From NCBI GenBank assembly GCA_010093815.1, contig ML996573.1: DNA of 64,000 bases; one strand, given 5' to 3'. The stretch comes from Pseudovirgaria hyperparasitica (taxonomy: Eukaryota). Shown here piece after piece: positions 38,451 through 64,000 of the stretch (positions are counted from its first letter, which is position 1; every line of letters starts with the position of its first letter). The notes under the pieces are model-generated. The model did not search any database. It saw nothing but the letters and a program-made list of their open reading frames with translations, and was not told the origin of the DNA. The translations under genes and the position numbers were made by a program.

Positions 38451-38464
38451 TAGGAAAGATACGG

Positions 38465-38880
38465 CGCTTCTAGTACTTCTAGGTCTTCCGGTACTTCTAA
38501 AGTTATCCTAAATGGGTCCCGGTACTTCTAGAGTTATTCTATTCCTTCCGGAGTTGTCCCGGTACTTCTTAAGTTATTCTAGTCCTTCTAGAGTTATTCT
38601 AGTTCTCCTAGAGCTATTCTAGTTCTTCTAGAATTATTCTATTAAATATTAAGAAAATGTTTAATTCTATTATATACTAGTGCATATCGGAATATCCTAT
38701 TATATACCGGTATATATAGTAACGTTCTACTATATACCGGTATATAATAGCGATACTACTTTATATTATAACTATATTTTAAGTATCTAGGAATATCCTA
38801 TAATATACCGGCGTATATTAGAATATCCTATTATATACTAGTATATATAGTAATATTCTACTATATACCGGCATAGAATA
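38465..38880. repeat. Two degenerate tandem arrays at the left edge of unit D
   Basis: ccggtacttc..gagttattct-type units 38465-38640; ctattatataccggtatata..-type ~30-bp units 38665-38880. Confidence 0.75.
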
Positions 38881-38949
38881 AATATCTTATTTCTCTTTAT
38901 ATATAGATATATATAGATATATAATTACGAGTAAATAGCGGTTTATATT

Positions 38950-41900
38950 TATACTACTATACTATCTAGTCTCTTAGAAGCTACTTAACTAACTACCTTA
39001 CTTACTTCTATATCTCTATAGGATTACTAAAGTATACGCCTAATACTAGTATATCGGGTATAGTTATTACTACTATAGATATATCTCCTTTTTCTAGATC
39101 TAAGACTTATTTCCTTATACTTTCGATTATCTAGTCTAATATAGTAAATCTACTCTTAACCCCTAAATAGTCTAAAACTAAAGTATATATATATACTATA
39201 GGCTAATATTATCTATAGTAATAATATCTTATACTTATTTACGGCCACGTCTTTTTACATAGATATTAGTCTACTAATATAATATAACCGGTAACTATTA
39301 GGTCTTATCCCTTATAGACTTACGAAGCTAAGGCTAGTAAAATATATAGAGAATCTAACTTATTTAATCTAAAATCTTTATATACCTTATTTATACTAGA
39401 CGTACTTAGGCCGGCCGGTAAATATACTAATATTTTTAATTTTACGTATAAATATAGTACCTATATATATATTAGTAAATTATATTACTAGTAAGTACTA
39501 ATATAAATACTTACTATATATAGGAATATTACGGTTACTAGTATAGTAGATATAATTATAATTTTCTCTAGTTAGTTAGCGAATATTTAACGCACGTGTT
39601 TAGTATTTTTATTATAAACCTTTTTATTAATAAGCTTATAGAGCTAGTTTACCTTCGAAGCGACTCCTTTTAAAGCTAGTAAGATTATATTCTTTTATAT
39701 ACTATTATCTAGCTAGAGGAGTAATTCGCGTATAGAATTAACGTTTACTCTATCTAGTATACTATTATTATCTATTAACGGACGTATAAGTCTAATTTTA
39801 ATATATTCCTTACTTATCCTTTTATTAGTAAGGTATATAAGTAGTATATATATAGTAGCTAGCCTAGCCTTATAGTAGTACGTGTTATATCTAAGCCCGT
39901 TTAATTTACCCTAGGCGATAGCTTATTTAAGGAGCCTTCGGCCTTTATCCTTGTATAACTATATAATCTACTTCTCTATATCTATAGCGGCGATATATAT
40001 AATATCTACTACTAGGGTTACTATTATAGATAGATAGTTCTTTCTATTAAACTACTTACTTAGTTATCTCCTTTATAGAATAAATAGTAAATATTAATTA
40101 GCTACTATATATAGTATATACTTACTATCCGTAGTTTCTAATACTATACTAACTATACTAGCTATTATCTCTACCGGCTTATTTTTTATTTAAGAGAGGA
40201 GTTTATTTAACTACGTTATAACTATCTTTCTTATAGATCCCTTCTATATACTCTTAAATACTAATTTAGTAGTATTATTATTAACGTAGTTAAGTAACTA
40301 ATCTAGAATATCTATTTTAATAGCTAATAGAATATCTAATAGACTATTCGAGAGGGGCGTTATACTAATCTATATACTAAATATAAAGGGATTAAGTCGT
40401 GTATATCTATACTATTTTATTATAGGTTTTTTTAAGGTATGGAACTTATCTACTATAAATATACCGATAAATACTATGTTATAGGTTTAAATAATATTAG
40501 CGCTAAATTTTTTCGTCTTCTTCTCTTTTAGAACTACGCGTCTAGTAAAGTTTATAATATATTAGATCTCTATACTTTAGATAGTAGTATAGACTATATT
40601 ATTCTTTGTATATTATAATAGAAATTTAATAGTAGCGGTCTTATTAACGTAAATTAACTACTCCTTAGTAATATACTCCTTACTAGTCTTATATTTTATA
40701 GAATTACTAATATTATTATAATATTTCTATTTAGGGTTAGAGTACCTCTTAGCTAGATAGTATATGTCTATAGATAAGAGTTATTAGATATTAGAGGCGT
40801 TAAGAAGGGTTTTCGAGTATACTAACCGTACTACTATCTTTATCGGGTTCTATTTATTAATTTTATTAGTAAACATACTATCTATATTATAGTATATCTA
40901 GTTAAAGCGCTATAGCTAATATAATACTAGAAGGTTCCTTAGATAGTATAGTATAAATAGTCCTTAGAGGCGGGGTATCTTACTAAATTTATTAGTCTAG
41001 CTACACGGATATTTAATCGGATATAGAGATTATATTAGGTACTTTCTATCTATACCTAGGTCTTAAGTTAGTAGTAGGTGCTTTTCTAGATATAGTTCTA
41101 TATTATTATATAGAAAGTTCTAATAGAATATAAGGTAGATAAACGTTATAAGCACGATAGTCTTCCCTAGCCCTAGACTATCTACTAAGATCTAGTAGTT
41201 CTACGGACCTACCTACTACTTAAATATAGTAACTACTATAAGTAATTAGCCGGTCTATAGTCTATATAATCTACTTATACTAAAGACTAGATATAGAATA
41301 GGTATATAGCTAAAGTCCTTTATTAGATTATCTAGTATAAGCCTAAATATACTTATAGTAAGTAACTATATCTCTTCTATATAATAAGAGATAGCTTAGA
41401 TTACTTTATTAGAGTTATTAACGGCGAATACTCTATAGATATATTAGTATAGTAGTATATATTTCTACTCGCTACTTAGTATAACTTACGCTTCCTAAAG
41501 TTTTATACTAAGGTTATTATCTACTAGAAGATTATTATCCGTATCTAGTTTTACTTTATCTTTATTAGACTTATTATCTAGGGGATAGATAATAAAGGTA
41601 ATATTATCTATTAATATATTATCTAATATATCTAATATATTTCTACTATATAAATCGTCTATTAACCCGATTAGATTCTAGTACTTAAGTATCTACCGGT
41701 TAATATCTAGTAGTATACTATATTCTAGTTTTAAGCGTTTAGAAGAATCTATAGGGTTTACTATATTATTCGAGAGTATCCTCTTTATTACTAGTAACTA
41801 TAGATAAGCTTTACTAGTATCTAGAGGTATAATAGTATCCGTTATATAATTATCTAAGTTAGTAATTATAGCTATATCTATCTTTAATACTACTCTAATG

Positions 41901-42650
41901 TTAGTATCTAGTACTAAGTATATATATATATCTAAGTATACTTATTATGTTATCTTCTATTTTAGTATCTTCTATAACTACTTTCTCTTTATATTCTAAC
42001 GGTAACTATAACTATATATCTATAGCTAGTATATTTACGCGTATATAAGCTTCGCTAGATACGATAGTACTTATAGAGGGATTATCTAAGTTAGCGAGTA
42101 TAGCCGCATCTATCTTTAATACTACTCTAATATTAGTATCTAGTACTAAGTATATATATATGTCTAAGTATACTTATTACGTCGTCTTCTATTTTAGTAT
42201 CTTCTATATTCTCTTTCTCTTTATATTCTAATAGCGACTATAACTATATATCTATAGCTAGTATATCTATATCTAGTTTAGCCTCCGTTATATCTATAGC
42301 TATAACTATTAGTATTAACTTACTATCTATAGCCGCGATATACTAATTAAATTCTTTAGTAATAGTTTCCTCGACTATTCTAATAAGTATAGTAGTATCT
42401 ATACTACTATTTTTAAGCTCTTATAATACTTTTCCGCGTACTATCTTAATAATAGTATCTCTATATATACTATAACTTATTTTAGATAGTTAGTATAGGC
42501 CTTAGAGATACTAGATATATAGTAGAAAGGCGCTAACGCTTAAGGCCTCTATACGTCGTATATATATATTATAGTTAGCTATTCTATAGCTAGTAGTTAA
42601 GCTAGAACGGTCGTAACTCTTACTATACTTATATATTTCTATATATAACT
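38950..42650 (-). pseudogene. RIP-inactivated SNF2-family (SF2) helicase/ATPase
   Basis: Motif I ILVDSLGLGKT (41159-41192), II FIVDKFH (de-RIP DEFH, ~40440-40460), III SITPLSN (~40345-40366), IV IFAN (~39580), VI de-RIP QERIHRIG (~39135-39160) in correct order; ends approximate. Confidence 0.8.
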
Positions 42651-43310
42651 TAGGTTATAGGTAATAAGACGGAGTTAGTAGCGATAAGAGTTAAAAACTA
42701 TATTTAGGCGGTAGAGGTTAAGTTACCGCGTTTACTAATTATAATATAATTTCGTAAAGTACGGAGGAAGTAAAGTATATAAGTAAATATTTAATTATTA
42801 GTATAGATCTTATACGAATATAATCATAGTAATAATATAGCTAGTAGAACCGGGCGTATACTAATATAAAATAGGTAGACGCTAGCTTATACTAGTATAT
42901 TAATGTCTTAATTAAATATACGTACTACGGTTATATAGCTAGTAGAATCGGGTATATACTAATATACTATAGGTAGAACCCGTCTTATATTAGTATTATA
43001 TTACCTTAGCTAAACACGCGTACTACTCTTACTACCCCTAGTATCCTTTTTATTATTCTATTACTCTTTATAATTAAGATCTATATCCTCTATATCTAAG
43101 ATACTTCTAAGGCTTTTAAAGTTACTATCTTTAGAGTTTATAGATTAGTCTTATAGCTTTCTAGGTACTAATAGTAGTATATATAGTATTACTAGAGGAA
43201 GGGTTAAGTCGTTTAGGTAATACTATCTACTATCTATAATACTATCTCTATAGGTATCTCTACTATTATAGGCGGTAGCTTTCTATTACTATTATTATAC
43301 TAGTTATAGT

Positions 43311-46300
43311 AAAACTTCTTACACCCTAACGGACTAAACTAGTTAATTTGGGGTAAAACAGCGATTTACATACATCAAACAATAGAGTATACTAAGTATA
43401 ACAACCTCCGACACACGTGCGTACGTATAGTATATAATACGCGATAATACTAATGTATAGAGATACTATATATATACGCTCGAAGACTCTTCGATAACAC
43501 GAGTATAGACTATATCTAATAAACGCCGACACGCCGACCCCCTTTTATTAGTTAAGGGCTACCCTTAACTAATAACCATGGCGGCCTTAGGTATTGTAAT
43601 ACCCCGGTAGACGCCGGATATACCCCTACTAGTATAGTAGAAACGGCTATATAGCGATATTAATATAGATAGCTAGACACCTATCTAAAATATAGGAACT
43701 AACTAAGGGTGCGAAGCGCTATAGATAATCTAGACTAAGAGGACCCTAAGAGGGGAGACCCTCCTAGATAAAATTAAATACTAGGTAATACGTGTAGAGA
43801 GGGACGCCGAGAAGAGAAAGAAGACCCTTCTTTATATATTCTAGGACCTTATCCGGAACCTAAGAGGAATTATAGAGGAAGAAAGGAAGTCGCTACGAGA
43901 GGAACCTAGTAGTAGACTTAACCGAATAGAAGCTAGCCTACGGAGAATCTAGAAAGAGCTATCCTAAGGTAAGCGCCCTAACACGTAGGCTTAGATTATA
44001 GTAACACCTAGAGCCACCGTACTAAGGACTACTAGAACTATAGATAGAGTATATAGTATACATGTCGTAATCTAGAATAAGAACACGCTAGCGTAGATCT
44101 AATAGATATCTCTAAAGGAAATTATAAATAAGATTAACGAATAGAAAGGAATGTAGTTAAGCGTCGTAGCTACTAAAGTTACGCTAGGTAGGGTAGTACT
44201 TACTACTATAACGAATACTACGTAGTAAAACATCTCGCGAGATTCGAATATAATAGATAGTATCTTCCCCGGCGCGTCTATTAGAGTAGCTATATACCCG
44301 ATTATAGTATATATAGTACCTATACGGGGATAGGCTATCGGAGCGGAGGATATTACGTGTATAGAATAATCTAACACGCGAAAATACCTAGAGATTAAGA
44401 TCGTAAAAGCGTGGTAGAAGAACCTATAGGCGATTAAGACGACGGCGAAAAAACACTCTACTATAATTATAGAGCTCTAAGACCCCGCCCTCGTATAATA
44501 TATTATATAGAAGGGATTCCTAGTAGAAGGAGAGCTCCTTATAGCCGAGCCATGGGATAGGGTATAGGTAATAATATAGTGCTTTAACTATTAAGGGTAT
44601 AGATATACTATATAAAGGTACTTATAGAAGACTAAGTGCGGATAGTGCCGTAGGGACCACGCTACCTAGGAGTGCCCTTATAAACCGTGAGGAGACGGAC
44701 TAAGAAACAGGGATATAGTATAGTATTTAAACTACGACGGGAAATACCCGTCGTGGTCGTTAACGTATATAAAATATAAATAGATCATAGAATATATTCG
44801 TACGATAAAAGCGAGAGGCGTAAGATAGTTATAGAATATAACATCTACCACGGGCCCTTCCTTTATAATACCCCTAACCTCCTCTCTAGAAGATAGTTAG
44901 ATAGGATAGTAGACTATCCCGAAGACGATAGGACGACTAAAAGGTATAGTTAAAGCCGCTGCCGCGCGAGGATAGTCGCGCCTCCAAGGAATAAGTATAT
45001 AGATATATATACTCTCTAGTACCTAATAAGGGACTAGAATATACTCTAAATTATATAGATAAATATATAATATAAAAGAGAGAACTAGGCGACGCTTCTT
45101 AAAGAGACCGGGGCCATAATACTCGCCATCTAGGAACCCTATAAATACTACTAGACGAGTAAACTAACCACACACCCCGGATACCATACTATATACCCTC
45201 TAGGACTAGAAAGACGAGTCCTCTTCTATATTCATAGGTTAATACTACTCTTATTATAGTCGTATACCGAGCGCGATAACCTTAGGATAATACTATACCT
45301 ATAAATAGATATAGGCCCCCTATATATATATAACATATATAACTAATAATATATACTTATACTAGACGAGATACTTAAGGGTACCACGGAACTAGGGTAA
45401 TATATCCTCCTAGAAGACTTTAACCTCTACTACTAATAGTAGGGAGGCCTAGCCATAGTAAGGGAAGAACTTAGAGTAAGGGAACTACGCACCCGCTACC
45501 ACGACTTTCTATACCTACTTATACCTATAGAATAAGTTATATAGAAAAAATATAAATAGGACGAAGACGGGTCTATACTTAACCTTACCTTCGCCACGGA
45601 GTATATTAGTTACCGGATCTAATACTACCGCCTAAGCTAGGTATAGACGGATTCCAACTATAAATATATAGAAACCGTAATAAATATATATACCCCGAAT
45701 AAATAACGGGGACAATAGATATAGAAGGATACTAACTAGAAAAAGTACCTAAAGGACCTAGAATCGGCGATCCTAGATCCCTCTATAGTTAATATATCTA
45801 ATAATCTAGCCATAGACTAGGCCGTATAGATACTCCTATAAATATACTAGAATACGAGAAATAAACACGTACTATACTAAATATACCGGCCCCCGGAAGT
45901 AAAGGGGATTCCTTAAGTATAGGAAAGTAGATAAGACGCCCAAAGGCTATATATACGCGTATACCGTACGAGAATACCCGAGTCGTAGAAAGAATAGAAG
46001 GAAGTAATATAATAACGCGATAAAGTCCTCCGTAACGAAAGGCGTAAATAGTAGTATATAATTACTAGTTAATAGACATGATACGTAATAGGGCTATGGT
46101 ATATAGCGAAATAGGCCAAGGGCGTAGACACTCCGACACCCCCGCTACTTATACCTCCCCTAATATATTAGGGGAGAATATACTCTACGAGCCTTAAGAA
46201 AACTAAGGCCCTACGGGAGGCTATATTCCCTCTCCCGGAACTAGTAGACCTATTAGATATTCACGGCGCTAAATATCTATATACGGTAGATATCCCTAAA

Positions 46301-48572
46301 GAAGTTACGGAGGAGGATATACTTAATATTATTAAGATACTCCTAAATAATAAAGTACCCGGACTAGATAGAATTCTAAATCGATGCCTAAAAAGTACTA
46401 TAAAAGTGACCCTACCGCTTATTACTTATATATTCTAAGTATACGTCACGTAGGGGTACCACCCCTAGAGCTTCTAAGTCGCCTATACTATTATACTCCC
46501 GAAACTAGGAAAGAGCCCTAACTCCCTAAAGGGATAGAGACTAATCGCCCTTCTCTTCTACCTAGGTAAGATACTAGAGGCTATGGTAGCGAAGAAGATG
46601 AGTACCGCGGTATAGAAATATAATCTCCTCCCTCCGAACTAGAAGGTAAAGGTAGATAGCTCTCTAATAATAGCTATCTAATATATTATTAAAGTCGTCT
46701 AGGCCGTATGGAAATAGGAACGGGTAGTATCGCTTCTCTCCCTCGATATAGCCGGAGCGTTTAATAAGGTAAACTATATAAGACTTATTTATAACCTCCG
46801 GATAAGACGAATACTAGAATGGATTATACGCTTTATATAGTTATTCCTTATAGGAAGAATAACTTAGATATATATCCCTAGGTACTAGAGCGAATATAAA
46901 GAGACGGTATATAGCATCCTATAAGGGAGCACTATCTCTCTAATTCTATTCCTCTTCTTTACGGTAGACCTTCTTTAAGGAATAAAGTATATAGAGGTAG
47001 TTAGATACGCCGATAATATATACCTTCTAGCTATTAATAATAATACTAACCGAACGTATAGACGACTAGAATAGGACTACGAGAGGTGCCTCTAGTAGGT
47101 AAAACGCCATAGAGTAAAGTTCGCCCTAGAGAAATACTAGCTTATGTACTTTATTAACCGTTAAGGGAAATAGATAACTAGGGAAGATAAATAACGCCCC
47201 TAAATCAACGTATTTAACGAACTACTAGTATAAAGTATACGCGCGCTCGGAGTTATACTAGATAGTAAGCTTAAATAGGGACTATAAGTAGTATACGCCG
47301 TCTCTAGGGCCCTCCGGGTAGAAGCCGCTATATAATAGATTATAGCCTCTATATAGGGAACCGCCCGGGATAAGGTACGCTAGCTATATATATCTATAGT
47401 ACGACCCGCCTTCACGTACGGACACGAGTGCTAGTATATAGCCCTTATATAGACTAGGCGAATAAAGCTCGAATCCATATAGAACCGTATACTCCGTCTT
47501 ATATTAGGCGTATATAAAGCTACTAATACGGTACTACTACGACGCGAGATAGACGTTATAAGTATATATAACTTCTACTAGATATAGAGGGTAGTATACT
47601 TTACTAAATAATAAGTATAGGAACGTATAGAAAACGTAGAATATACTTTCGCCACGCTACGTGTATAAATTAGTATATATTACCGCGTACTCCTATATAT
47701 AGACCGGAATTAAATACGGTATAGATGCTTAATAGAAGCTAACTCTAGCTAAGTAGTATAAGAAGTCCGAGATAACCCGGACGCTCTTCTAGACTAGTAG
47801 AGCCTTTAAGAACTTATAAAAAATATACGGTCGTGGACTTAAGATAAGTAGAAAGAGGCACTCTATGCCCACTAGACCTCCTAGTAGAATAGGTACCTAG
47901 AGTAGATTTAAGGGCCATAGAAGGAACTAAGTAAATAGATATATAAAGGGCTAATAAAAGTCTAAGTATCTATACTTATCTAAGCCCGAACGGGCGCTAT
48001 AGAACTTCTATACTATATCTATAAGAGAGGCGTTCCTAATACCTCCCTATAGTATAAGGCACACAGCCAGAGAGGTATAATACACCACTATCTAGCTATA
48101 TACCCTAACCTCTATATATAACAGTAATAGCTTATCTACATTATAAAGACTTTAGATATCGTATAATAGCTTAATAAGTACCCTAAGAATATCTCCTAAT
48201 AGATACTTATATATCTACTACTCCTCTAGTACTAGTAGACCCGGAAATATATACCGGAAGAGACCCGGTATACGCCGGTAGTAACCTAATATATACCGGA
48301 AGAACCCTAGGAGAACCCCGATTATTAGTTAAGGGCAGCCCTTAACTAATAACCTCCGCATCTACACGTGCTACCTAAGGGCGAAATAATAGTAATATAG
48401 ACTATAGGCTAATAGGCGTACCCTATAGCTATATACTTAAGACGAAACAGAGGTTTAACGAGATATAGTTATAGATATAAGGAAGTTTTTCCCTATAGGG
48501 TTTCTTCTTATATAGTGGCTTAGACTAGAGGAGGCATAGGCCTATAGAGTACTACTCTACCTAGTTATATAA

Positions 48573-48600
<28 letters not shown>
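43311..48600 (+). mobile_element. Full-length Tad-clade-like LINE, RIP-mutated (copy A)
   Basis: TSD atactagttatag(t/c) 43297-43310 / 48601-48614; ORF1 ATG 43578 with CCHC knuckles ~44575-44770; ORF2 with APE endonuclease (LLEDFNL ~45410), RT (PGLDRI ~46360, QGS ~46922, YADN ~47006), C-terminal Cys/His motif; (TAT)n tail. Confidence 0.93.
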
Positions 48601-48603
<3 letters not shown>

Positions 48604-48614
48604 CTAGTTATAGC

Positions 48615-49540
48615 GAGTATAGTATTAGAGATAGAGAGGCGGATTTATTTAAGTATAATCTATATATAGCCGTCTATGCTATTATATATTAGTTACTAGT
48701 TTATATTTTATTTTACTTCTAGTATACTATCTATATTCTATCTAAGGCCGAGGAGTATTATACTATTACTATATTCTAGAATACGTTTAATTACTAACTA
48801 TAGAAGCTATCTAATATCTATCTCTAGTTCCGTTTTACTTATTATATACTTAACTAGTAGTATAATAGAATATATGGTAGTATAGCTCTAGTTAAGTACT
48901 CTTCTAGTCTTTATTATATATTAGACTCTAATTCGCTATATAAATACTACTAAATTAATATATAAAGCGTCGCTATAATCTTTCTACTAGTTAGACATAG
49001 ATACTAGTATTTTAAGAAATGTATTATCGTTAAACCTAATCGTAAATTTAATTTTTCTTATAGTATATACGTTAGTAGACTATAGAACTACTATAAGTAT
49101 AGGCTATAAGGTCGTAGTATATAAGAGCTATAAGATTATAATAGACGGGGGTTATAAGGTCGTAATAGGCGGAGGTTATAAGGTTATAATAGGCGGGGAT
49201 TATAAGGTTATAGGATATAGGGCTATAATTACGCGCCTCTTCTTATACTTAGAGATAGTTTTTCTATAATATATAGTTTTCTATACTATAGTACATACCT
49301 AGTCGTAGATATAGTATAGCGCCTTTATCTCTATATACTCTACTACTCTTTTCTATACTACTAGAAATTTACCCGCTATCTTATTAATAATCTTATATAC
49401 TCTTTTTATACTAAGCTTATTCTTAGTTTAATACCTATAGTCTATAAGTAGAGTAGCTATATATACTTCTATATATAGCTACCTTATATACGCCTCTATA
49501 GCTTTACGCTTTACTTATATATCTAGACTTAAGATATAAA
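48615..49540 (-). pseudogene. Degenerate unknown gene of unit D with 24-bp coding repeat (PPITTLQP-like)
   Basis: Long minus frame with only RIP-type stops; ggttataaggtcgtaataggcgga-type units ~49100-49215; probably continues left of LINE A (43000-43310). Confidence 0.4.
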
Positions 49541-54400: not shown

Positions 54401-56727
54401 TTAGGCGGTAGTATTAGATCTAGTAACTAATATACTCCGTAGCGAAGGTAAGGTTAAGCGTAGACCCGTCTTTATCCTATTTATGTTTTTTCTATATAAC
54501 TTATCCTATAGATATAAGTAGATATAGAAAGTCGTGGTAGCGGGTACGTAGTTCCCTTACTCTAAGTTCTTCCCTTACTATGGCTAGGCCTCCCTACTAT
54601 TAGTAGTAGAGGTTAAAGTCTCCTAGGAGGATGTGTTACCCTAGTTCCGTAGTACCCTCGAGCATCTTGTCTAGTGTAAGTATACGTTATTAGTTATATA
54701 TATTATATATATATAGGGGGCCTATATCTATTTATAGGTGTAGTATTATCCTAAGGTTATCGCGCTCGGTATACGACTATAATAAGAGTAGTATTAACCT
54801 ATAAATATGGAAGAGGACTCGTCTTTCTAGTCCTAGAGGGTGTATAGTATGGTATCCGGGGTGTGTGGTTAGTTTACTCGTCTAGTAGTATTTATAGGGT
54901 TCCTAGATAGTAAGTATTATAGCCCCGGTCTCTTCGAGGAGCGTCGCCTAGTTCTCTCTTTTATATTATATGTTTATCTATATAATTTAGAGTATATTCT
55001 AGTCCCTTATTAGGTACTAGGGAGTATATATACCTATATACTTATTCCTTGGAGGCGCGACTATCCTTACGCGGTAGCGGCTTTAACTATGCCTTTTAGT
55101 CGTCCTATCGTCTTTAGGATAGTCTACTATCCCGCCTAACTACCTTCTAGAGGGGAGGTTAGGAGTATTATAAAGGAAGGGCCCGTAGTAGGTATTATAT
55201 TCTATAACTATCTTACGCCTCTCGCTTTTATCGTACGAATGTATTCTATAACCTATTTACGTTTTATATACGTTAACGACCACGACGGGTGTTTCCTATC
55301 ATAGTTTAAATACTATACTATATCCCTATTTCTTAGTCTATCTCCTTGCGGTTTATAAGGGTACTTCTAGGTGGCGTGGTCCCTACGGTACTATCCGCAC
55401 TTAGTCTTCTATAAGTACCTTTATATAGTATATCTATACCCTTAATAGTTAAAGCACTATATTATTACCTATGCCCTATTCTATAGCTCGGCTATAAGGA
55501 GCTCTCCTTCTACTAGGAATCCCTTCTATATAATATATTATACGAGGGCGGGGTCTTAGAGCTCTATAATTATAGTAGAGTGTTTTTTCGCCGTCATCTT
55601 AATCGTCTATAGGTTCTTCTACCACGCTTTTATAATCTTAATCCCTAGGTATTTTCGCGTGTTAGATTATTCTATGCGCGTAATATTCTCCGCTCCGATA
55701 GTCTATCCTAGTATAGGTACTATGTATACTATAATCGGGTATATAGCTACCCTAATAGACGCGCTAGGGAAGATACTACCTATCGCGTTCGGATCTCGCG
55801 AGATGTTTTACTACGTAGTATTTATTATAGTAGTAAGTACTACCCTATCTAGTGTAACTTTAGTAGCCACGACGCTTAACTATATTCCTTTCTATTTATT
55901 AATCTTATTTATAATTTCCTTTAGGGATGCCTGTTGGACCTACGCTAGCGTGTCCTTATCCTAGATTACGATATATATACTATATGCTCTATCTATAGTC
56001 CTAGTAGTCCTTAGTGTGGTAGCTCCGGGTATTACTATAATCTAAGCCTACGTGTTAGGGCGCTTATCTTAGAATAGCTCTTCCTAGATTCTCCGTAGGC
56101 TAGCTTCTATTTAGTTAAGTCTACTACTAGGTTCCTCTCGTAGTAACTTCCTTTCTTCCTCCGTAATTTCTCTTAGATTCTAGATAAGGTCCCGGAATAT
56201 ATAAAGGAGGGTCTTCTTTCCCTTCTCGGCGTCCCTCTCTATATGTATTACCTAGTATTTAATTTTATCTAGGAGGGTCTCCCCTCTCGGGGTCCCCTCG
56301 GTCTAGATTATCTATAGCGCTTTACACCCTTAGTTAGTACCTATATTTTAGATAGGTGTCTAGCTATCTATATTAATGTCGCTATATGGCCGTTTCTACC
56401 GTACTAGTGGGGGTATATCCGGCGTCTACTAGGGTATTACGATGCCTAAGGCCGCTATGGTTATTAGTTAAGGGTAGCCCTTAACTAATAAAAGGGGGTC
56501 GGCGTGTCGGCGTTTATTAGATGTAGTCTATACTCGTATTATCGAAGAGTCTTTAAGCGTATATATATAGTATCTCTATACGTCGGTATCGTCGTGTATT
56601 ATATACTATACGTACGTATATATGTCGGAGGTTGTTATACTCGGTGTACTCTATCGTTTAATGTATGTAAATCGCTGTTTTACCCCAAATTGACTAGTTT
56701 AGTCCGTTGGGGTGTAAGAAGTTTTTT
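51443..56727 (-). mobile_element. Full-length Tad-clade-like LINE, RIP-mutated (copy B)
   Basis: Reverse complement of 43311-48600, differing mainly by transitions; 15-bp TSD gtatatagaaatata (51428-51442, 56728-56742). Confidence 0.93.
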
Positions 56728-59700
56728 GTATATAGAAATATAGAGTACGTAATTAAGTATAATACTATAATAGAAGAGCTTAGTAATAATCTACTAAGTG
56801 AAACGTAATAAGTCTATATTATATATTAAGTTATTTACCGTGTACGCGTAATCTCTATTAATATTAGTATATATAATATATTAATAGCCGCGGATTCTAA
56901 ATATTTATTAAACGGTCTCTATAAGTAGTATATTAATATTATTTATTATATAGGGTAAGGTTATTAGCTCGTCTAAGTAAGTAATTAGTAATATAACGTT
57001 TATTATTCTAGGAACTAAGCGTTCTAACTTAGTAAGGTAAGTAGTTAGAAAACTATATTATATCTAGTACTTTATAAAGGAGATTCTCTAGTTCGCGGCC
57101 TATATATTAGTACTATTATACTAGTAGATATTAAGCTAGCGTAGGTTACTAACGTAAATAAATGTCGGTTACTATTCTATAGTAGTATAATTAATAATAA
57201 TCCTAAGTATATTACTTTTAAGGATATACGTAGCCTCTTCTATTATAACTAAAATTAGATATATATTATAGACTACCTTAGTAATATTTATAATATATAG
57301 GGTCCCTATATAAATCTAGGCGTAGATAGTAACTAGGTTCTAGGTAGTAAGGTATAGCTTATTCATTCTATTATACTTCTTCTTAGGCATGTTCTTATTA
57401 TAAGTATAATATTTATAGATAGTATATAATAGCTAAGCCGTTTCTTTCTCGAAATTCTTAGAGATCTATTTATATTAGTATTAAGATTTAATAAGTCTAA
57501 TAACCTTAAGTATAATATAACTAGTATATAGTTCCTATAGATAAGTATAGGGATCCGTACTATATTCTAATAGTTATTTACTATGGTCGGCCTAAGCTTA
57601 CATAAGGATAGTACTATCTATTATATTATTCTAGGTTAGTCTAATAAGAGGGTCGCTATAACGAGATAGTCTAGCTATAGTAAAGAAAATCTCTTAATTA
57701 ATAGCTTTAGAGTATCTTTAAAGAACGACCGGTATCTTTAGAGACTTATAGTAAGTAAATATATTACTTATATATTTATATACTTTTCTTATAGCATTAT
57801 TATAGGTTTTATTAGTTAGGCCGATAATAATATATATATATATTCTATATATTTAGATGGAACCTAGTATAGAGAGGTACGCTATTACATCGCTAGATAG
57901 AATAACTACCTTAGTAGTATAAGTAATAATGGAAGTACTATTTATTTTATTAATTAGAAGTATAGCTAGTAGTAGACGAAGCTATAAATGGCTCTTTCTA
58001 GCTCCTCTATAGCTATAAAGTAGAAACTAAGCCCTAAGTACGTCCGTTATCTATATATAGATATACTATTATTAGAGAGATAGTTCTAAATATATAATAT
58101 TCTAGAGATCGTAGAATCTTTTATAATCTTTAATATAGTAGTTATAGTTAACGGGTTAAAGATTTAGATAGTTATTACTAAGTATTAGATTCTATACGGA
58201 GGGTAGTAAAGGGGATAGAATACTAGAGTAGACTTTAGATAATATTAGGAGTATATATATATTAGTAATAGGGCTAGTAATAGAACCTTCGTCACTAATA
58301 ACATCATAACTATATTCTATATTCATATCCTTATTATTATCTAGGGATATAGATAATTTAGAAAGAGTAATAAGGGTATCCTAAGGCTCTATACTATAAT
58401 CTAGAATCTCGTTATTAGAGTTAGAGGACCTATATATTAGAGATATAGATACTAAGTCTATAATAATATTAAGGACTATTATATTAAACGTATTCTAAGC
58501 GACATAGTTATCTACGTCGCTATCTCTAGAAGCTTATATAGCGTGGTAGATTAGTTTCTAGTATATATTAATGTATTACTTAGTAAGCTTATCGTAGATT
58601 TATATACTAACTAAAGCCGGAATATCCGTGAACCCTATAAGCGTAGTAAGAAATAATCTAATTATACTTAAACTAGTATTACTAGTCTAAATAAAATATT
58701 TAGGACGAGCTTAAGTTATATTAGTAACTATATCTATTAATATAATTAGTATCTTAGGTACTTTAGAAGGACGTCTAACCTTATTAAAGACTTTTAGAGT
58801 AAGGCATTTAAATAGAAGGACGTCTAGGCGAAATTAAAGAACTTTAAAGCGGTACGTATTATTATTATAATCCTTTAAATCTACTTTAAGGTATCTATAA
58901 CTACCTAGTTCTATATAATAGAATCCTTTTATATTAATAGGATAGATAATAGCTAAGAGCGCCCGAGTAATATCTAAGAGCTAGATATATCTAATAGTAA
59001 TATCTTAGAATTAGAATAATAGAAGATCTATCTATTCGTCTTATAAGGTACTTATAGTAATATATATTAGATAGTTGAATTTCTTATTAAATAACTCGCG
59101 GTAGGGAATAGAGATCTAGAGCTAAGTGTCCGGCCTACTTATTATACTATATTATATATAGAGAGTAGTAACTTCTATATACCATGAATTAATTAGATTA
59201 CTCTCTAGTTTAAGCTTATTATCAAAGCTAGTAAGATCTATAGAGTTACGTAGCGGTAGTAAGATATAAACTATAGTATAAGTATCTAGATCTTCGAAGA
59301 ATTACTTTACTTATTTATATATTATATTAGGTCTAATATATAATAGAATAGTAAAACCTATACTAAGAAGCTCGCTAGCTATAAGTTTAATAATCTAAAA
59401 GTCGTAAGGGTCTTTATAGAGGCCGGTATTAGTATATAGTATATTAGCTTTATCCGCTTCGCTTATAATAAGATTAGAAAGTTTAGAAAAATACTTAATA
59501 AAGTTATCTACTTACTTAACCTTAAAGATCTATACTATAGGATAGTCGGATAATAGAAGAATATTAGTATAATTAAAGCGGAGTAAGCTTATTAAGGATA
59601 CTAATTTCCCTTTATTAATCTATTAGAAGCGAGTACGTAACTTAATCTAAGAGTAGTACTTAGGGAATTTAAGGAATCTATATATATAACTAATTAACTC

Positions 59701-59994
59701 TTTAAAGCCGTGACCTTTACTATAAGCCTTAAATACTACTAGCTTAAGCTTAGCTTAAGTTTTCGCTTATTTCTACTTAAGTCTATCTATTTCTCTACTA
59801 ATACTATAGATATTCCTAAAGATTAACTATAGATTACTCTATATAAGAGAGATCTAATAGATAGTATAAGTAGAAACGGAAGCCTTACTACTTTAGACCT
59901 TCTTAAGTTTATATTTATCGTTAGAATAGTAGTTACTAGTAAGTATACTAAAGATAAGTGGTTTATTATTAGTTAAGATAGTAGTTATATTATA

Positions 59995-60240
59995 AGCTTC
60001 GACTTAAGCGTAAGACTTAGCTTAAATATAAGGATTAGCTTAAATATAAGGCTCGGCTTAAACGTAAGGATCGGCTTAAGTATAAGGCTCGACTTAAATA
60101 TAAGGCTTAGCTTAAATATAAGGCTTAGCTTAAACATAAGAATTAGCTTAAGCGTAAGGCTTAACTTAAACGTAAGGCTTAGCTTAAATATAAGGATCGA
60201 CTTAAACGTAAGACTCGGCTTAAACATAAGACTTAATTAT
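59995..60240 (-). repeat. 18-bp degenerate tandem repeat (~13 units), probably N-terminal coding repeat of the SF1 helicase relic
   Basis: gcttaaatataaggctta-type units; translates as (KPSLTF)-like hexapeptides in ORF 59985..60227. Confidence 0.8.
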
Positions 60241-60383
60241 ATTAAGCGTAGACTAGTCCTAAATATTACTAAATATAACGAGTTCTTAATCTATATTATA
60301 AACTATAAATATAACCTTATTAACTATTATATAGAATGGACCTTAAGAGTTAATAGAGTTAAGTTCGACGTAGTATTTATATA

Positions 60384-62160
60384 ATAATAATAATAATAAT
60401 ATTATATAACTAGGTAGAGTAGTACTCTACAGGCCTATGCCTCCTCTAGTCTAAGCCACTATATAAGAAGAAACCCCATAGGGAAAAACTTCCTTATATC
60501 TATAACTACATCTCGTTAAACCTCTATTTCGTCTTAAGTATATAGCTATAGAGTACGCCTATTAGCCTATAGCCTATATTACCGTTATTTTACCCTTAGG
60601 TAGCACGTATAGATACGGAGGTTATTAGTTAAGGGCTGCCCCCGACTAATAATTAGGGTTCTCCTAGGGTTCTTCCGGTATATATTAGATTACTACCGGC
60701 GTATACCGGGTCTCTTCTAGTATATATTTCCGGGTCTACTAGTACTAGAGGAGTAGTAGATATATAAGTATCTATCGGGAGACGTCCTTAGGGTACTTAT
60801 TAAGCTATTATATGATATCTAAAGTCTTTATAACGTGGATAAGCCATTGCCGTTATATATGGAGGTTAGGGTATATAGCTAGATAGTGGCGTATTATACC
60901 TCTCCGGCCGCACGCCTTATACTATAGGGAGGTGTCGGGAATACCTCTCTTATAGCCTCTAGTTCGAAGTCGGATAACTCCTATAGGTTCGACGTGCCCT
61001 ATACCATTAGGCTCTACTCCTATTTTCGCCTTATCTTATCCCCTTTAGGCTTATACCTCCGGCTCTACTAGAAGAGGGGTACGACGCCTTATCTAGCTAG
61101 GAAACTACGAGGTTTACTCCTTAAACTTATATTACTAGCGTATATACCTAGCGACACGTTCTATCTCTTTATAAATTAACACGTGTATCCGTTCTCTCGG
61201 GCTATATAGTAGTCTCTCTAGCTAGGACGTGATCCCGCCTACTTCTAGGTATACTAAAGGTTAGAGCCTATTAAAGGGGTAAGGTTCTTAGAGCTAGTAG
61301 TTACTACTATATACCACGCCCCGCCTTTAAGTATAGCTACTATCTAGTTTCGCGTTATCTATAAGGATCTCTCTATAATAGGCCGACCGTGTCTTATAGA
61401 CGAGCATCCTTTAAATCCTATACGTATATACTTGCGTGACGCGCCTAGGCGACTTAAGTATTCTCTACCTACTAACCCGACTTATTTCTACTACTTTTTA
61501 ATAGGTCTCTATAGCCGCCTCTTATCTATATCCGTGTACTATTATCTATATATACTAGCGCCCTACCTCCTATGGTAGACTATAATATCTCTTATACGCG
61601 GGAGCCACTCTATCTATCCTAGACCTAAGCGGTATCCCGTATCGAGCGAAAGGTCTTAATAGAGTCGCGCTACTAGTAGTCGCGCTAGGCGTCTTAATAA
61701 ACGTAGTTTAATACTATAGGAGAGTTAGCCTTAATAAGTTCATCCGTAGTAGTTTATAGTTGCCCTTAACGTGATTTCTCGCTAATCCTTACGTACCTAG
61801 AGCCATTTAAGCCTCGAGGTGTCCTATTGCGCTACTAGGACTTCCGCTTTCTCTACCCACATGGTAAGGTAGATTTAGGCCTACTTTTAATATAGTAGTA
61901 GCGTGTTAGGTGGTTTTCTTATCCCGGTATCCTCGTGGACTCCTCTTAACACGTTAATTAAGAATAGGATAGAAGTGTATACTATCCTAGCTGGTTTATT
62001 ACGGTGTGGTCCCTGTAGAGTAACGCGTCGCGAAAACTCTATAACTATCTACCTAGCGACGACGAGGTCGCTATTAACGCCGCTCCGAACCTCTTACTAC
62101 CTCTAAAGAGGCATTGCCTAGCTACGACAACGTGGACGCGGTTCGTAAGACTTCGCAGCC
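60384..62160 (-). mobile_element. Chimeric non-autonomous retroposon copy 2: 1207-bp module (60954-62160) + ~0.57-kb LINE 3' end
   Basis: 14-bp TSD gtagtatttatata (60370-60383, 62161-62174); (TAT)n tail; same module termini as copy 1. Confidence 0.88.
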
Positions 62161-62199
62161 GTAGTATTTATATATAGTTATAATTAATATAGAATAAAG

Positions 62200-63200
62200 T
62201 ATAGAAGGTAAGATTTAGATTTAAAAACTAAGATAAGTAGAGGAAAGGTTTATAGAAGTTTTCTTTTATAATATAGAGATAACTAAAGGAAGCTAAGATT
62301 AATATAGGCTAAAGTAATAGTAGCTTAAGTAGTATATAAAGTAGGGTAGTATACTACTATTATATAAGTCTAGTAGCTTGCTAACTAAGTATATAGTATA
62401 TTATAGAAGGCTATTAAATCGGGACTTAGATAAATATAGATATAAGTAAATAGTATTATATAAAAGTTTAGCCGTCCGATATACTAACGCTATAGATACC
62501 GAGTCTATCTTCTAAATTCTATAGTAACTATCTCTTCTAGATAGTAAGATATTACTAGCTATATCTTACCTATTCTATTTATAGTAGAGATACTATATAT
62601 CTATTAGTATACTAGCGTATGTATCTAACTACTACTTAAATATAACTTACTTTATACTATAATATGTACTATCGAGCTAATATTATACTAATATTTATAG
62701 GTTCGTGTCTATAAACTTCTCTTCTATAATATTAAAACTAGTAATATTATCTAGTAATAGGACTATATAAGAAGGAGGCGGACTTAGTATATCTAGTTAT
62801 ATATAGACTTCTACTATTATCTTAATAACTACTACGCCGGTAGACGCTTCCTCCCTAGCTCTAAATAGTATATAATATTAGACTTTTATATGTTTACTTA
62901 AACTCTTAAGTGTACTAGTATTATATATTAATTTATAAGGCGATTAGATTATAATCGCTAGTATATTAATATTAACGGATAGAGTAGACGGGATAGTAGC
63001 GCTCGACTCTTCTAATATAATATTAGCTAGCTAATAATATAATAGATAAATATACTAGTCGCGTCGTTATTAACGTCTATTATTTAAGTAGATAAAGTAT
63101 TAACTACGTCTATATTAAGTAGACTAGGGCGTACCTATATACTATTAATAAAAGACCTAAATCTAGTAAGATATCTACTATATATATAACTCTATATATA
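62200..63200 (-). pseudogene. Degenerate intron-containing unknown gene of unit D
   Basis: Minus frame ~63000-62651 with only RIP-type stops, ending at a GTAAGT donor (~62650). Confidence 0.35.
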
Positions 63201-64000
63201 ACCGATAACTAAAAACCTAAGATATATAAATAGTATTAGATCTACGGAAGAGCGACGGTATTATACCGGTATATACTAGATATACTAGTATATATTAGTA
63301 TATACCGCTTAGTAGTTATAATATATTAATATATACTAATATCTATTAGTATATATATATCTTAAGCTTATCTACGCGCGCTAGACGGAGGAATTCTACT
63401 ACTATACTTATAGCGCGACATTTCTATATAGTTAGATTATAGTTAATATATTATAGTAGACTTCTAAATATACCGTTTATATCGCCTACACGGAAAACCA
63501 CCTAATCTAGTCCTAAGTCTAGTACCTATTTAATAGCCTACTATAATAAATTACTAGCTAGAGCCATAGAAGAATACATAGACTCTAGTATAAGTAGTAT
63601 AAGAAATAGTATAATACGTAGAAGAGGTGCCTATAATACGATAGATAACCTTAGATAATAACCTAAGGCCGAGATAGACATCTATAGAGAGAGCTAATTA
63701 TAGATACTTAGAATAGATATTCTAAGTAGTCTACCTAGTAATTAGAAATAGAATATTAGTATTCTAAGTAACGTACTAAATACTTAGAATAAGTATTCTA
63801 ATTAGAGGACCTTAGTAGAACTATATAGACTCTTTAGACCTAACCTCTAGAGATAGTTCTATGATAATTAATTTAAACTTATACTAATATAATTACTACT
63901 TTACTCGTCTACTAGCTAGTTACTATTTATACTCTATTAATACTTACTATAAACCTACTTATATCTCTCGGAGCCTTCTAAGTATCTTTATCTTTAGAAA

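What the first reader, a model, noticed from the sequence alone, without database searches (positions are those of the whole stretch)
38455..64000. Candidate undescribed giant element encoding both a SNF2 remodeller-type ATPase and a Upf1-like SF1 helicase
Seen: removing three TSD-bounded inserts leaves >=13 kb of uniformly RIPed DNA that starts abruptly inside LINE C with repeat arrays. It contains co-oriented SNF2 and SF1 helicase relics plus several unknown genes and runs off the window. Established: RIP marks duplicated DNA; helicase-bearing fungal elements I know use Pif1-like (Helitron) or RecQ-like (AcademH, telomere-linked) helicases, not this pair. Inference: a multi-copy giant transposon, Starship-like cargo or virus-derived unit whose mobilising gene lies right of 64 kb. 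Host silencing factors SAD-6 and SAD-3 belong to the same two families, so an anti-silencing role is a speculative possibility.
Basis: partly seen in the sequence, partly recalled or inferred. Interest (0 to 1): 0.85.

Follow-up and report, generated by a model that had tools for sequence, protein, structure and literature searches.

The report
RIP-killed multicopy repeat with two helicases
This is a dead, heavily mutated copy of a large repeated DNA unit in a fungus that once encoded two different DNA/RNA motor proteins; such a gene pair is not known from fungal mobile elements, but how the unit spread cannot be seen from this window.

Summary
From 23 kb onwards the window is saturated with RIP-type mutation. 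Taking out two full-length LINEs with target duplications, and one short LINE-derived insert, leaves 13,178 bp with uniform G+C of 0.268-0.278. This DNA begins where an older LINE breaks off, about 1.9 kb short of its 3' end.

The minus strand carries two relics:
- **Upf1-like SF1B helicase:** about 1,330 codons, split by LINE B. My RIP-aware profile test gives z=10.8, 0 of 200 shuffles; a Pif1 profile gives z=1.2. NCBIfam's only hit is the IGHMBP2 family, E=0.0066.
- **SNF2-family ATPase:** about 960 codons, with weaker support. Pfam gives E=0.01; motifs I, II and VI lie in order in one frame.

The unit is multi-copy. Contigs of two runs of one sample place up to 15 distinct variants on single sites, differing mostly by transitions.

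No recombinase, right end or intact relative was found. "Giant transposon" is therefore plausible but unproven, and I could not show that the two genes belong to one element. The closest precedent found is the 26-kb X3X3R8 helicase-cluster repeat of Stagonospora nodorum (PMC3017866).

The parts
32628..33425 (+). LINE C, 5' part (context: the older LINE that the unit interrupts)
   Evidence: 72% raw and 87.7% purine/pyrimidine-collapsed identity to the 5' end of LINE A. G+C 0.244.
35830..38447 (+). LINE C, middle part. It stops at LINE A position 46701-46706, about 1.9 kb short of the LINE's 3' end.
   Evidence: 68.9% raw and 90.3% collapsed identity to LINE A 44085-46706. Alignment of the break. 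No resumption found in 38453-64000.
38448..38925 (.). Left end of the unit (3' end relative to its genes), made of repeat arrays: 20-bp unit x about 6 (38525-38644), 30-bp unit with TATATACCGGTATATA core x about 5 (38664-38891), 10-bp unit (38898-38923).
   Evidence: Tandem Repeats Finder. Motif counts: 5 against 0.06 expected, and 9 in the window (7 of them here) against 0.31 expected.
39011..41900 (-). SNF2-family ATPase relic in one frame, about 960 codons. Motif I at 41191-41138, motif II at 40462-40397, motif VI at 39241-39191.
   Evidence: Pfam SNF2-rel_dom is the only family hit: E=0.37 for 765 aa, E=0.01 for the motif I segment. PADLOC's only hit is ZorD, an SNF2 helicase, E=0.081. Best PDB hit is fft3, E=0.35. 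Collinear profile test 55.5 against 36.2+-4.8, 0 of 200 shuffles; the other five frames look like the null. 53 stops in 765 codons against 86-117 in four other frames.
41825..42272 (.). 232-bp tandem repeat, 1.8 copies, upstream of the SNF2 relic
42815..43026 (.). 98-bp tandem repeat, 2 copies
43311..48596 (+). LINE A: a later insertion of a full-length non-LTR retrotransposon with an (ATT)n tail and a 17-bp target duplication
   Evidence: RVT_1 E=1.2e-16. G+C 0.377.
48597..50400 (.). Unassigned part of the unit with 24/48-bp arrays (49077-49228). Only a weak coding-like signal.
   Evidence: No family hit in the three minus-strand frames of 48595-51440; the plus strand was not scanned.
50400..51439 (-). 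C-terminal part of the Upf1-like SF1B helicase relic. Motifs V-VI at 51439-51137, then a 15-bp (5-codon) repeat at 50601-50702.
   Evidence: Local RIP-aware hit of 37.2 bits to nodes 621-713 of the Upf1-like profile; noise is 20 bits or less. NCBIfam's only hit is TIGR00376, IGHMBP2 family helicase, E=0.0066.
51440..56725 (-). LINE B: a later insertion that splits the SF1 relic. Target duplication of 13-16 bp.
   Evidence: G+C 0.378.
56726..59700 (-). N-terminal part of the SF1 relic: about 560 unassigned codons, then helicase motifs I to IV (58005-56977).
   Evidence: Joined to the C-terminal part in one frame: 73.6 against 29.4+-4.1, z=10.8, 0 of 200. Motif alignments. 61 stops in 987 codons against 85-174 in the other frames. 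Coding-like purine/pyrimidine codon pattern.
59991..60238 (.). 18-bp tandem array, about 13 copies, upstream of the SF1 relic
60372..62174 (-). Third later insert: a 1.8-kb element with a LINE 3' end (575 bp) joined to a 1.2-kb body. Paralogue of 33426-35829.
   Evidence: G+C 0.413.
62175..64000 (.). Unassigned RIPed DNA with the same G+C (0.270) as the rest of the unit. It runs off the window, and its membership of the unit is assumed.

Best explanation
Window 38448-64000 is one RIP-inactivated copy of a large repeated DNA unit, at least 13.2 kb before later insertions.

Gene order on the minus strand, 5' to 3':
- a minisatellite;
- an ORF of about 1,330 codons whose C-terminal two thirds are a Upf1-like (SF1B; AAA_11/AAA_12, IGHMBP2-type) helicase;
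- 2-3 kb of unassigned DNA with further minisatellites;
- an SNF2-family ATPase ORF of about 960 codons;
- a terminal block of 20-bp and 30-bp repeats.

History, shown or inferred:
- The unit, or a longer element containing it, landed in or was joined to an older LINE (shown: the LINE breaks off).
- It multiplied to a dozen or more copies (shown: many variants in the runs).
- It was riddled with C-to-T and G-to-A changes by RIP without frameshifts (shown: single frames carry the motifs).
- It then received three younger non-LTR insertions (shown).

How it spread is inferred. Most likely it moved as DNA, through a recombinase or transposase that is not in this window. The two motor proteins would be element-encoded helpers: a 5'-3' helicase for unwinding or processing, and an SNF2 motor for access to or remodelling of chromatin. 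They would not be the mobilising enzyme. Nothing here is functional today.
For: RIP and nesting.

SF1 relic:
- Profile built from 29 bacterial Upf1-like loci.
- One minus frame scores 73.6 against null 29.4+-4.1, 0 of 200. In the other five frames 16 to 166 of 200 shuffles reach the score.
- Block version: z=10.2, 0 of 300.
- Same frame against other profiles: Pif1 z=1.2, UvrD z=1.1, SNF2 z=-1.1, RecD z=4.7.
- Independent library hit: IGHMBP2 family, E=0.0066.

SNF2 relic.

Multi-copy:
- At the 32 listed places inside the unit, 1-15 distinct X1 contigs (median 4) carry another letter.
- Pieces of 163-193 nt with 5-23 differences lie on 40611-40869, 41578-41770, 42786-42948 and 49891-50058.
- About 951 of 999 kinds of change in X1 are transitions.
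- Summed depth is 4,200-28,800 against 127-478 for single contigs.

Same unit: uniform G+C of the four pieces, both relics on the same strand, and similar numbers of variants on the SNF2 relic (15 at 40094) and the SF1 relic (12 at 50982).
Against: - No terminus pair, target duplication or recombinase is seen. The right side lies outside the window.
- Linkage of the two relics in other copies is not shown, because the contigs are only 150-350 nt long.
- Summed depth over the SNF2 core (4,200-6,600 in X1) is three to five times lower than over its flanks and piece 2 (11,000-28,800). The parts may therefore differ in copy number or in divergence.
- The SNF2 assignment is weak. All library hits are below curated cut-offs. 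My bacterial SNF2 profile does no better on it than the Upf1-like profile: z=4.2 against 3.7, and z=2.6 against 3.6. Motif IV is not detected.
- The 14-bp duplication removed to keep the SF1 frame was chosen among 13-16 bp so that the frame fits, a one-in-three chance.
- Standard searches found no relative at all. phmmer against 1.84 billion representatives gave 0 hits. Two word-indexed searches gave none.
- The runs hold only 0.49-0.53 of the stretch's words. They are one sample, and summed contig depth is not a copy number.
Confidence: 0.5

Rival explanations
1. Mosaic: the 13 kb is a patchwork of two or more unrelated old repeat families, one carrying an SNF2 gene and one carrying an SF1 helicase. 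They look like one unit only because saturating RIP has levelled their composition.
For: Summed depth differs three- to five-fold between the SNF2 core and the other parts. 2-3 kb between the relics has no assignable gene. Several minisatellites could mark old element borders. The whole region is a pile of nested repeats.
Against: G+C of all four pieces lies within 0.268-0.278, while neighbouring repeats of other ages have 0.24 or 0.38-0.41. Both relics share a strand. Similar numbers of distinct variants lie on both. No target duplication or internal border was found inside the unit.
Confidence: 0.2
2. Amplified host gene cluster: ordinary fungal SNF2 and Upf1-like genes were duplicated many times by segmental duplication or carried along by other elements, and then destroyed by RIP. 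Hane and Oliver read the X3X3R8 repeat of S. nodorum this way. The unit has no mobility of its own.
For: There is a precedent for a multi-copy RIPed 'endogenous gene cluster' with SNF2-like helicases (PMC3017866; passages read). No transposase-like domain was seen in the 13 kb (minus strand only).
Against: The edge is abrupt and lies inside a LINE, followed by blocks of short terminal repeats. A dozen or more diverged copies exist. A negative domain search means little on DNA this mutated: even the helicases were missed by Pfam.
Confidence: 0.2
3. Cargo or body of a Starship-type giant element, or a virus-derived block, whose recombinase or viral core genes lie beyond 64 kb.
For: The element runs off the window. 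The genes point away from the unseen right end, where a Starship's recombinase gene would lie (recalled, not checked). The size of at least 25 kb including inserts is compatible.
Against: No such gene was seen. Copy number appears to be a dozen or more, which is unusual for Starships (recalled). No viral hallmark was found. Nothing like it turned up in the literature searches on Starships with SNF2 or helicase.
Confidence: 0.07
4. Helitron: the SF1 ORF is a Rep-helicase, and the SNF2 sequence is a captured gene.
For: A long ORF with the helicase in its C-terminal part. Helitrons capture genes (general knowledge; also stated in bioRxiv 10.1101/2025.11.13.688278, passages read).
Against: The helicase scores z=1.2 (17 of 150 shuffles reach it) against a Pif1 profile, but z=10.7 against the Upf1-like profile. 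The motif V-VI pattern is of the Upf1/IGHMBP2 kind. No Rep domain was detected, but this could not be tested sensitively.
Confidence: 0.03

Closest known systems
X3X3R8 repeat family of Stagonospora (Parastagonospora) nodorum SN15 (Hane & Oliver 2010, PMC3017866; passages read)
   Same: A large (26 kb), multi-copy, RIP-affected repeat in a filamentous ascomycete. It carries helicase genes of the SNF2 kind plus unassigned ORFs, has no recognised transposase, and its mode of spread is unknown.
   Different: X3X3R8 has three Rad5/SNF2-like helicase genes and a Rad6-type ubiquitin-conjugating enzyme, and some copies are still annotated as genes. Here there is one SNF2 relic and a Upf1-like SF1B helicase, no UBC could be tested, and this copy is dead. 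Sequence relatedness could not be tested because no X3X3R8 sequence was at hand. The supplementary tables of that paper are old .xls files and were not seen.
Starship giant transposons of Pezizomycotina
   Same: A large DNA element of filamentous ascomycetes with cargo genes. It can be hit by RIP and by nested transposons.
   Different: The defining DUF3435 tyrosine recombinase and the element ends were not seen. Copy number here seems much higher than is usual for Starships (recalled). SNF2 or Upf1-like genes are not among the accessory families I recall for Starships. 'snf2' occurs 0 times in the 14 listed papers that mention Starships at least 9 times. It occurs 4 times in one listed paper that mentions Starships 3 times (PMC10799480).
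Helitrons (Rep/Pif1-like helicase rolling-circle transposons)
   Same: A eukaryotic DNA element that encodes its own SF1B helicase within a long ORF.
   Different: The helicase here is Upf1-like, not Pif1-like. No Rep was found.
Telomere-linked helicase repeats (fungal TLH/RecQ families, yeast Y') and AcademH transposons
   Same: Multi-copy fungal repeats or transposons that encode a helicase. The RecQ families are also heavily RIPed or AT-rich (PMC4522978 and PMC3017866; passages read).
   Different: Those helicases are reported as RecQ-type SF2. For AcademH this is recalled only, as the paper is not in the library. Here the pair is SF1B Upf1-like plus SNF2. No telomere repeat is nearby, and a RecQ profile was not tested.

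Membership tests
SNF2 family ATPases (Pfam SNF2-rel_dom + Helicase_C) | N-terminal lobe with motif I (xxDxMGLGKT) and motifs II-III (DExH..KN ... TGTP..N) in order | tested here: met
   Motif I segment: Pfam SNF2-rel_dom is the only hit, E=0.01, 15.4 bits, below the 24.9 cut-off. PADLOC ZorD E=0.081. PDB fft3 aligns motif I and motifs II-III. RIP-aware motif I 22.1 bits, 0 of 200; motif II 12.6 bits, 12 of 200.
SNF2 family ATPases (Pfam SNF2-rel_dom + Helicase_C) | C-terminal lobe (motifs IV-VI) and better fit to SNF2 than to other P-loop helicases | tested here: inconclusive
   Motif VI 14.6 bits, 8 of 200. Motif IV not detected, 176 of 200. No Helicase_C hit. The whole relic scores z=4.2 with the SNF2 profile and z=3.7 with the Upf1-like profile. 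Block test: 2.6 against 3.6.
Upf1-like SF1B helicases (Pfam AAA_11/AAA_12; IGHMBP2, Upf1, Sen1, DNA2 kind) | Motifs I, II, III, IV, V and VI collinear in one frame, with the AAA_12-type motif V-VI block | tested here: met
   z=10.8, 0 of 200. Local hit of 37.2 bits on motifs V-VI. NCBIfam TIGR00376 is the only hit, E=0.0066, far below its whole-protein cut-off. Pfam and PDB by ordinary search gave nothing.
Upf1-like SF1B helicases (Pfam AAA_11/AAA_12; IGHMBP2, Upf1, Sen1, DNA2 kind) | Better fit than to the other SF1 families | tested here: met
   Upf1-like z=10.7; RecD-like 4.7; Pif1 1.2; UvrD 1.1. All profiles were built from bacterial loci only.
Helitron | Pif1-like helicase fused to an HUH Rep domain | tested here: not met
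   Pif1 profile z=1.2, 17 of 150. Rep was not testable, as no reference was at hand.
Starship | DUF3435 tyrosine recombinase ('captain') at the 5' end; defined ends with a target-site repeat | not testable with these tools
   The 5' side of the unit lies beyond 64000. No genome is held. No eukaryotic DUF3435 reference could be brought into the RIP-aware test.
Transposable element in general | Multiple dispersed copies | tested here: met
   Up to 15 distinct contigs on one site; divergent pieces of 163-193 nt; differences mostly transitions. Dispersal to different loci is not shown directly. One contig joins 41444 to a LINE end, which suggests a copy with a different insertion (table 5c).
Transposable element in general | Two defined ends with a target-site duplication or an empty site | not testable with these tools
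   Only the left edge is in the window. Exact-match scans of metagenome contigs with a stretch of the right end and of the left end found nothing.
X3X3R8-type helicase-cluster repeat | Rad5-type SNF2 helicase (with RING) and Rad6-type UBC gene in the unit | not tested
   No reference sequences available. The 265 codons between SNF2 motifs III and IV look short for a RING insertion (by eye; the typical spacing is recalled).

The most novel reading that the evidence does not exclude
This is a relic of an undescribed family of large fungal DNA elements that carry their own Upf1-like helicase and SNF2 remodeller as a linked pair. Both families also supply host silencing factors. The element would use the pair either to mobilise or replicate itself, or to blunt chromatin- or RNA-based silencing. 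Intact relatives would then be waiting in less RIP-prone fungi.
Probability: 0.25. Interest if true: 0.8.

Novelty: new variant of a known kind. Interest (0 to 1): 0.55.

Why it matters
Large multi-copy repeats that carry helicase genes have been seen in RIP-active fungi since at least 2010, but were filed as 'endogenous gene clusters' without a mechanism. This window gives a second, different case: Upf1-like plus SNF2, and not Pif1 (RecQ was not tested). Such units may be a neglected class of fungal mobile or amplifying DNA.

If the pair is truly linked and intact relatives exist, two open questions become testable. How do very large elements without a classical transposase spread? Do elements carry motor proteins of the kinds that hosts use for meiotic and chromatin silencing?

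There is also a practical result. Ordinary searches failed on this DNA: Pfam (apart from sub-threshold hits), PDB and 1.84 billion proteins. A RIP-aware profile score and purine/pyrimidine-collapsed alignment recovered the SF1 signal, and this approach can be reused on other RIPed genomes.

Tried and rejected
- **Whole genome:** not held, so copies, ends and synteny could not be examined.
- **Pfam on read-through translations:** the three minus-strand frames of each unit piece gave no credible family (plus-strand frames were not scanned). The hits RNase_E_G_Thio E=0.21 and Dbr1_C E=3.7e-4, below cut-off, were judged chance.
- **PDB by sequence:** nothing for the SF1 pieces, or chance hits only (ebulin, Scc2).
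- **Large protein collections:** The search for homologous proteins found nothing with the SNF2 relic or with the SF1 C-terminal part against longer proteins. phmmer of the SNF2 relic against 1.84 billion representatives gave 0 hits.
- **Earlier findings of the scan:** nothing on this genome or on look-alikes.
- **Metagenome contigs:** exact 32-mer and 24-mer from the right and left ends gave 0 matches.
- **RNA genes:** none by Rfam or tRNA scan.
- **Inverted terminal repeat:** a search for a partner of the left end, in plain and in collapsed alphabet, gave only noise-level matches, plus a short TATATACCGGTATATA-like array at 63262-63356.
- **Contig joint 48960 to 38944 in run X1:** it could mean tandem units elsewhere. 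The flanks show no clear basis and the side lengths are not given, so it is left unexplained.
- **Depth of laid contigs as a copy number:** used only as an order of magnitude.
- **SNF2 sub-family (Rad5/16, Rad54, ATRX and so on) and SF1 sub-family (Hrr1/SAD-3, MOV10, ZNFX1 and so on):** not resolvable without eukaryotic references.
- **RIP-aware tests for transposase or recombinase domains:** not attempted. Only bacterial references could be fetched, and they are too distant for a negative result to mean anything.

Full report
**Setting.** The first 23 kb of the window hold ordinary, unmutated fungal genes: tannase/feruloyl esterase, MOSC, a protein kinase, SWIB and APH-type phosphotransferase. 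From 23 kb to the end, every 1-kb bin has TA/AT 1.42-2.10 and (CA+TG)/(AC+GT) 0.00-0.24. CpA stands at 5% of its frequency in the intact ORFs. This is saturating RIP. No whole genome is held for the window.

**Nested inserts.**
- A self-comparison finds two full-length copies of one non-LTR retrotransposon: LINE A at 43311-48596 on the plus strand and LINE B at 51440-56725 on the minus strand. They are 92.7% identical. Once A/G and C/T are collapsed they are 99.94% identical, so nearly all their differences are transitions.
- LINE A carries a reverse transcriptase (RVT_1, E=1.2e-16), ends in (ATT)n and is flanked by the 17-bp TATTATACTAGTTATAG. LINE B is flanked by YGTATATAGAAAT, readable as 13 to 16 bp because it overlaps the tail.
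- A third insert, 60372-62174, joins 575 bp of the LINE 3' end to a 1.2-kb body. It has a paralogue at 33426-35829 inside LINE C. Both copies carry almost the same 12-mer (AGTAYTTATATA) at both ends although their outer flanks differ. I doubt that this repeat is an ordinary target duplication.
- Removing the three inserts leaves 13,178 bp in four pieces, with G+C of 0.268, 0.278, 0.270 and 0.270. The inserts have 0.377-0.413 and LINE C 0.238-0.244.

**Left edge.** LINE C (32628-33425 and 35830-38447) starts at the LINE's 5' end and is collinear with LINE A up to 38447-38452, which is LINE A position 46701-46706. There it stops. The missing 1.9 kb does not reappear anywhere up to 64000, even in the collapsed alphabet that finds LINE C at 90% identity. 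A LINE that keeps its 5' end and lacks its 3' end was interrupted or broken, not truncated at insertion. Directly after the break come a 20-bp array (5 matches against 0.06 expected) and a 30-bp array with a palindromic TATATACCGGTATATA core (9 matches in the window, 7 of them here, against 0.31 expected).

**The SNF2 relic.**
- On the minus strand one frame runs from about 41900 to 39011. It has 53 stops in 765 codons, against 86-117 in four other frames; only its antisense partner is similar, at 48.
- Read with RIP-made stops as Q/W, it shows ILVDSLGLGKT, then IVDKFHTLKK, then ISITPLSN, then a C-terminal lobe.
- Library support is consistent but sub-threshold. Pfam's only family is SNF2-rel_dom: E=0.37 for 765 aa, and E=0.01 with 15.4 bits for the 100-aa motif I segment against a cut-off of 24.9. 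PADLOC's only hit is the SNF2 helicase ZorD, E=0.081. The best of two PDB hits is the SNF2 enzyme fft3, E=0.35, aligned over motif I and motifs II-III.
- With a profile built from 30 bacterial SNF2 loci, a collinear chain score gives 55.5 against 36.2+-4.8 for codon shuffles, 0 of 200. In the other five frames 61-170 of 200 shuffles reach the score.
- At the expected places, motif I scores 22.1 bits (0 of 200), motif II 12.6 (12 of 200) and motif VI 14.6 (8 of 200). Motif IV is not found (176 of 200).
- Against this reading, the same relic scores almost as well with my Upf1-like profile: z=3.7 against 4.2, and 3.6 against 2.6 with conserved blocks only. My profiles do not discriminate here, so the SNF2 call rests on the motif wording and the three library hits.

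**The SF1 relic.**
- A second stop-poor minus frame runs from about 59700 to 56726 (61 stops in 987 codons against 85-174) and goes on below LINE B from 51439 to about 50400. A purine/pyrimidine codon-class score, which RIP cannot change, is positive in that frame over the same range.
- Ordinary searches saw nothing.
- I therefore scored each codon by its posterior over pre-RIP codons: T may have been C, with more weight before A; A may have been G, with more weight after T. The scores were run against profiles built from bacterial loci found with Pfam families, using codon shuffles as the null.
- The stretch 51439-51137 gives a 37.2-bit local match to the motif V-VI block of the Upf1-like profile (..D.FQG.E.D.VILS.VR.N ... 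RLNVA.TRAK..L.IVG), while noise stays at or below about 20 bits.
- I joined the two sides of LINE B in one frame by dropping 14 bp of duplication. That length was chosen among 13-16 bp because it keeps the frame. The helicase core then scores 73.6 against 29.4+-4.1 (z=10.8, 0 of 200). In the other five frames 16-166 of 200 shuffles reach the score. Plain translation gives z=6.8.
- The same frame gives z=1.2 with a Pif1 profile, 1.1 with UvrD, -1.1 with SNF2 and 4.7 with RecD-like. The block test gives z=10.2, 0 of 300.
- Independently, NCBIfam's only hit for the C-terminal 180 codons is TIGR00376, the IGHMBP2 family helicase, at E=0.0066 on profile positions 562-624 of 639.
- The relic is therefore a Upf1-like SF1B helicase, not a Helitron-type Pif1 helicase. 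About 560 codons precede motif I. A 15-bp (five-codon) repeat lies near the ORF's end.

**What lies between and beyond.** Minisatellites sit at 59991-60238, 50601-50702, 49077-49228, 42815-43026 and 41825-42272. This places them upstream of the SF1 relic, near its end, in the spacer, and upstream of the SNF2 relic. The stretches 50.2-48.6 kb and 43.3-42.1 kb have stop-poor frames but little coding-like signal. The three minus-strand frames gave no family (the plus strand was not scanned), so the 'several unknown genes' remain unshown. No RNA family or tRNA is present.

**Copy number.**
- One sample of one study (two runs, 'organism A') holds 0.53 and 0.49 of the sampled words of 38455-43310.
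- I laid the contigs on 38000-51600 at 80% likeness. At the 32 listed places inside the unit, 1-15 distinct contigs (median 4, run X1) carry a letter other than the window's. Examples are 15 at 40094 inside the SNF2 relic, 14 at 42315 and 12 at 50982 inside the SF1 relic. Six listed places in LINE A carry 18-52.
- Pieces of 163-193 nt with 5-23 differences lie on the SNF2 relic and elsewhere in the unit.
- About 951 of 999 kinds of change are transitions, counted over the whole laid stretch, LINE A included.
- Summed depth is 4,200-28,800 over the unit and 120,000-313,000 over LINE A, against 127-478 for single listed contigs.
- I read this as a dozen or more diverged copies. The depth ratio hints at tens, but summed contig depth is not a copy number, and AT-rich short contigs may cross-match.
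- The SNF2 core has three to five times less summed depth than its flanks and piece 2. This could reflect internally deleted copies, greater divergence, inflation by the arrays, or separate families.

**Interpretation.** The nesting gives an order of events: LINE C first, then the unit, then LINEs A, B and the short insert. The composition agrees with this order. The best reading is a dead copy of a large, multi-copy DNA unit that encoded a Upf1-like helicase and an SNF2 ATPase in the same orientation. I put this at 0.5. How it multiplied is inferred only. The sharp edge with terminal short repeats suggests a DNA element moved by a recombinase that is not in view, with the two motors as helpers. 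Rivals are a mosaic of separate old repeats (0.2), an amplified host gene cluster without mobility of its own (0.2), Starship cargo or a viral block (0.07), and a Helitron (0.03, contradicted).

**Comparison with what is known.**
- Full-text searches for fungal repeats or transposons with SNF2 and helicase genes gave one close precedent. This is the X3X3R8 family of S. nodorum: 26 kb, at least nine copies with gene models, three Rad5/SNF2-like helicase genes, a Rad6-type UBC and two unknown ORFs. It is RIP-affected and was read as an endogenous gene cluster (PMC3017866; passages read). It is the only paper using that name. Its supplementary tables are old .xls files and could not be seen.
- The co-option screen PMC10799480 (passages) and the M. 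graminicola repeat survey PMC4522978 (passages) mention helicases only for Helitron, Academ/Kolobok or RecQ families.
- The paper that defines AcademH is not in the library. What I say about its helicase is recalled.
- I found no description of a fungal repeat with a Upf1-like plus SNF2 pair in these searches. That is not proof of absence.
- No relative was found in any sequence collection, which is expected for DNA this mutated.

**Verdict.** Its multi-copy nature and the helicase types are supported. The 'giant transposon' label, the unity of the unit and any anti-silencing role remain open. I rate it a new variant of a known kind, the helicase-bearing multi-copy RIPed repeats, with interest 0.55.

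Noticed in passing
33426-35829 and 60372-62174: Two copies of a short element (LINE 3' end plus a 1.2-kb body, 99.8% alike over the body in collapsed alphabet) both carry nearly the same 12-mer AGTAYTTATATA at both ends, although their outer flanks differ. This points to site-specific insertion or a terminal repeat of the element itself, rather than a random target duplication. The LINE-derived part is 1172 bp in one copy and 575 bp in the other.
   Followed up: partly
24108-24339 and 31320-31551: A 232-bp direct repeat pair (91.8% identical) lies 7.2 kb apart. The read-through translation between them shows a Ty3/gypsy-type reverse transcriptase pattern by eye (printed). This is probably a RIPed LTR retrotransposon.
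   Followed up: no
18507-18708: A 202-bp stretch inside the otherwise unmutated gene region matches the LINE 3' region (48059-48260) at 86.6% in collapsed alphabet. It explains the isolated RIPed, G+C 0.21 bin at 18-19 kb.
   Followed up: no
63262-63356: A short palindromic array of TATAC(C/T)(G/A)GTATA-like units resembles the 30-bp array at the unit's left end (87.8% over 82 nt in collapsed alphabet, E=9e-10, close to noise). A similar TATATACCGG unit also occurs in the LINE 3' region (48246-48307). Its meaning is unknown.
   Followed up: partly
38944 / 48960 and 41444 / 51506: Contigs of run X1 join 48960 to 38944 (one extra letter) and 41444 to 51506 (five extra letters). The first could mean tandem units in another copy. 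The second could mean another copy with a LINE inserted at a different place. Side lengths are not given, so neither is secure.
   Followed up: partly
38455-43310 against runs X1, X2: The best-holding runs contain only about half of the window's 31-letter words. At many listed places every laid contig differs from the window by a transition. The sequenced sample is therefore not identical to the assembled strain over this repeat. This would fit continuing RIP between strains, or assembly error.
   Followed up: no
method: Scoring codons by their possible pre-RIP states raised the SF1 signal from z=6.8 to z=10.8. Collapsing purines and pyrimidines raised LINE C / LINE A identity from 69% to 90%. 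Both tricks recover signal that ordinary searches lose in RIPed DNA. For the SNF2 relic the codon model gave no gain (z=4.0 both ways).
   Followed up: yes
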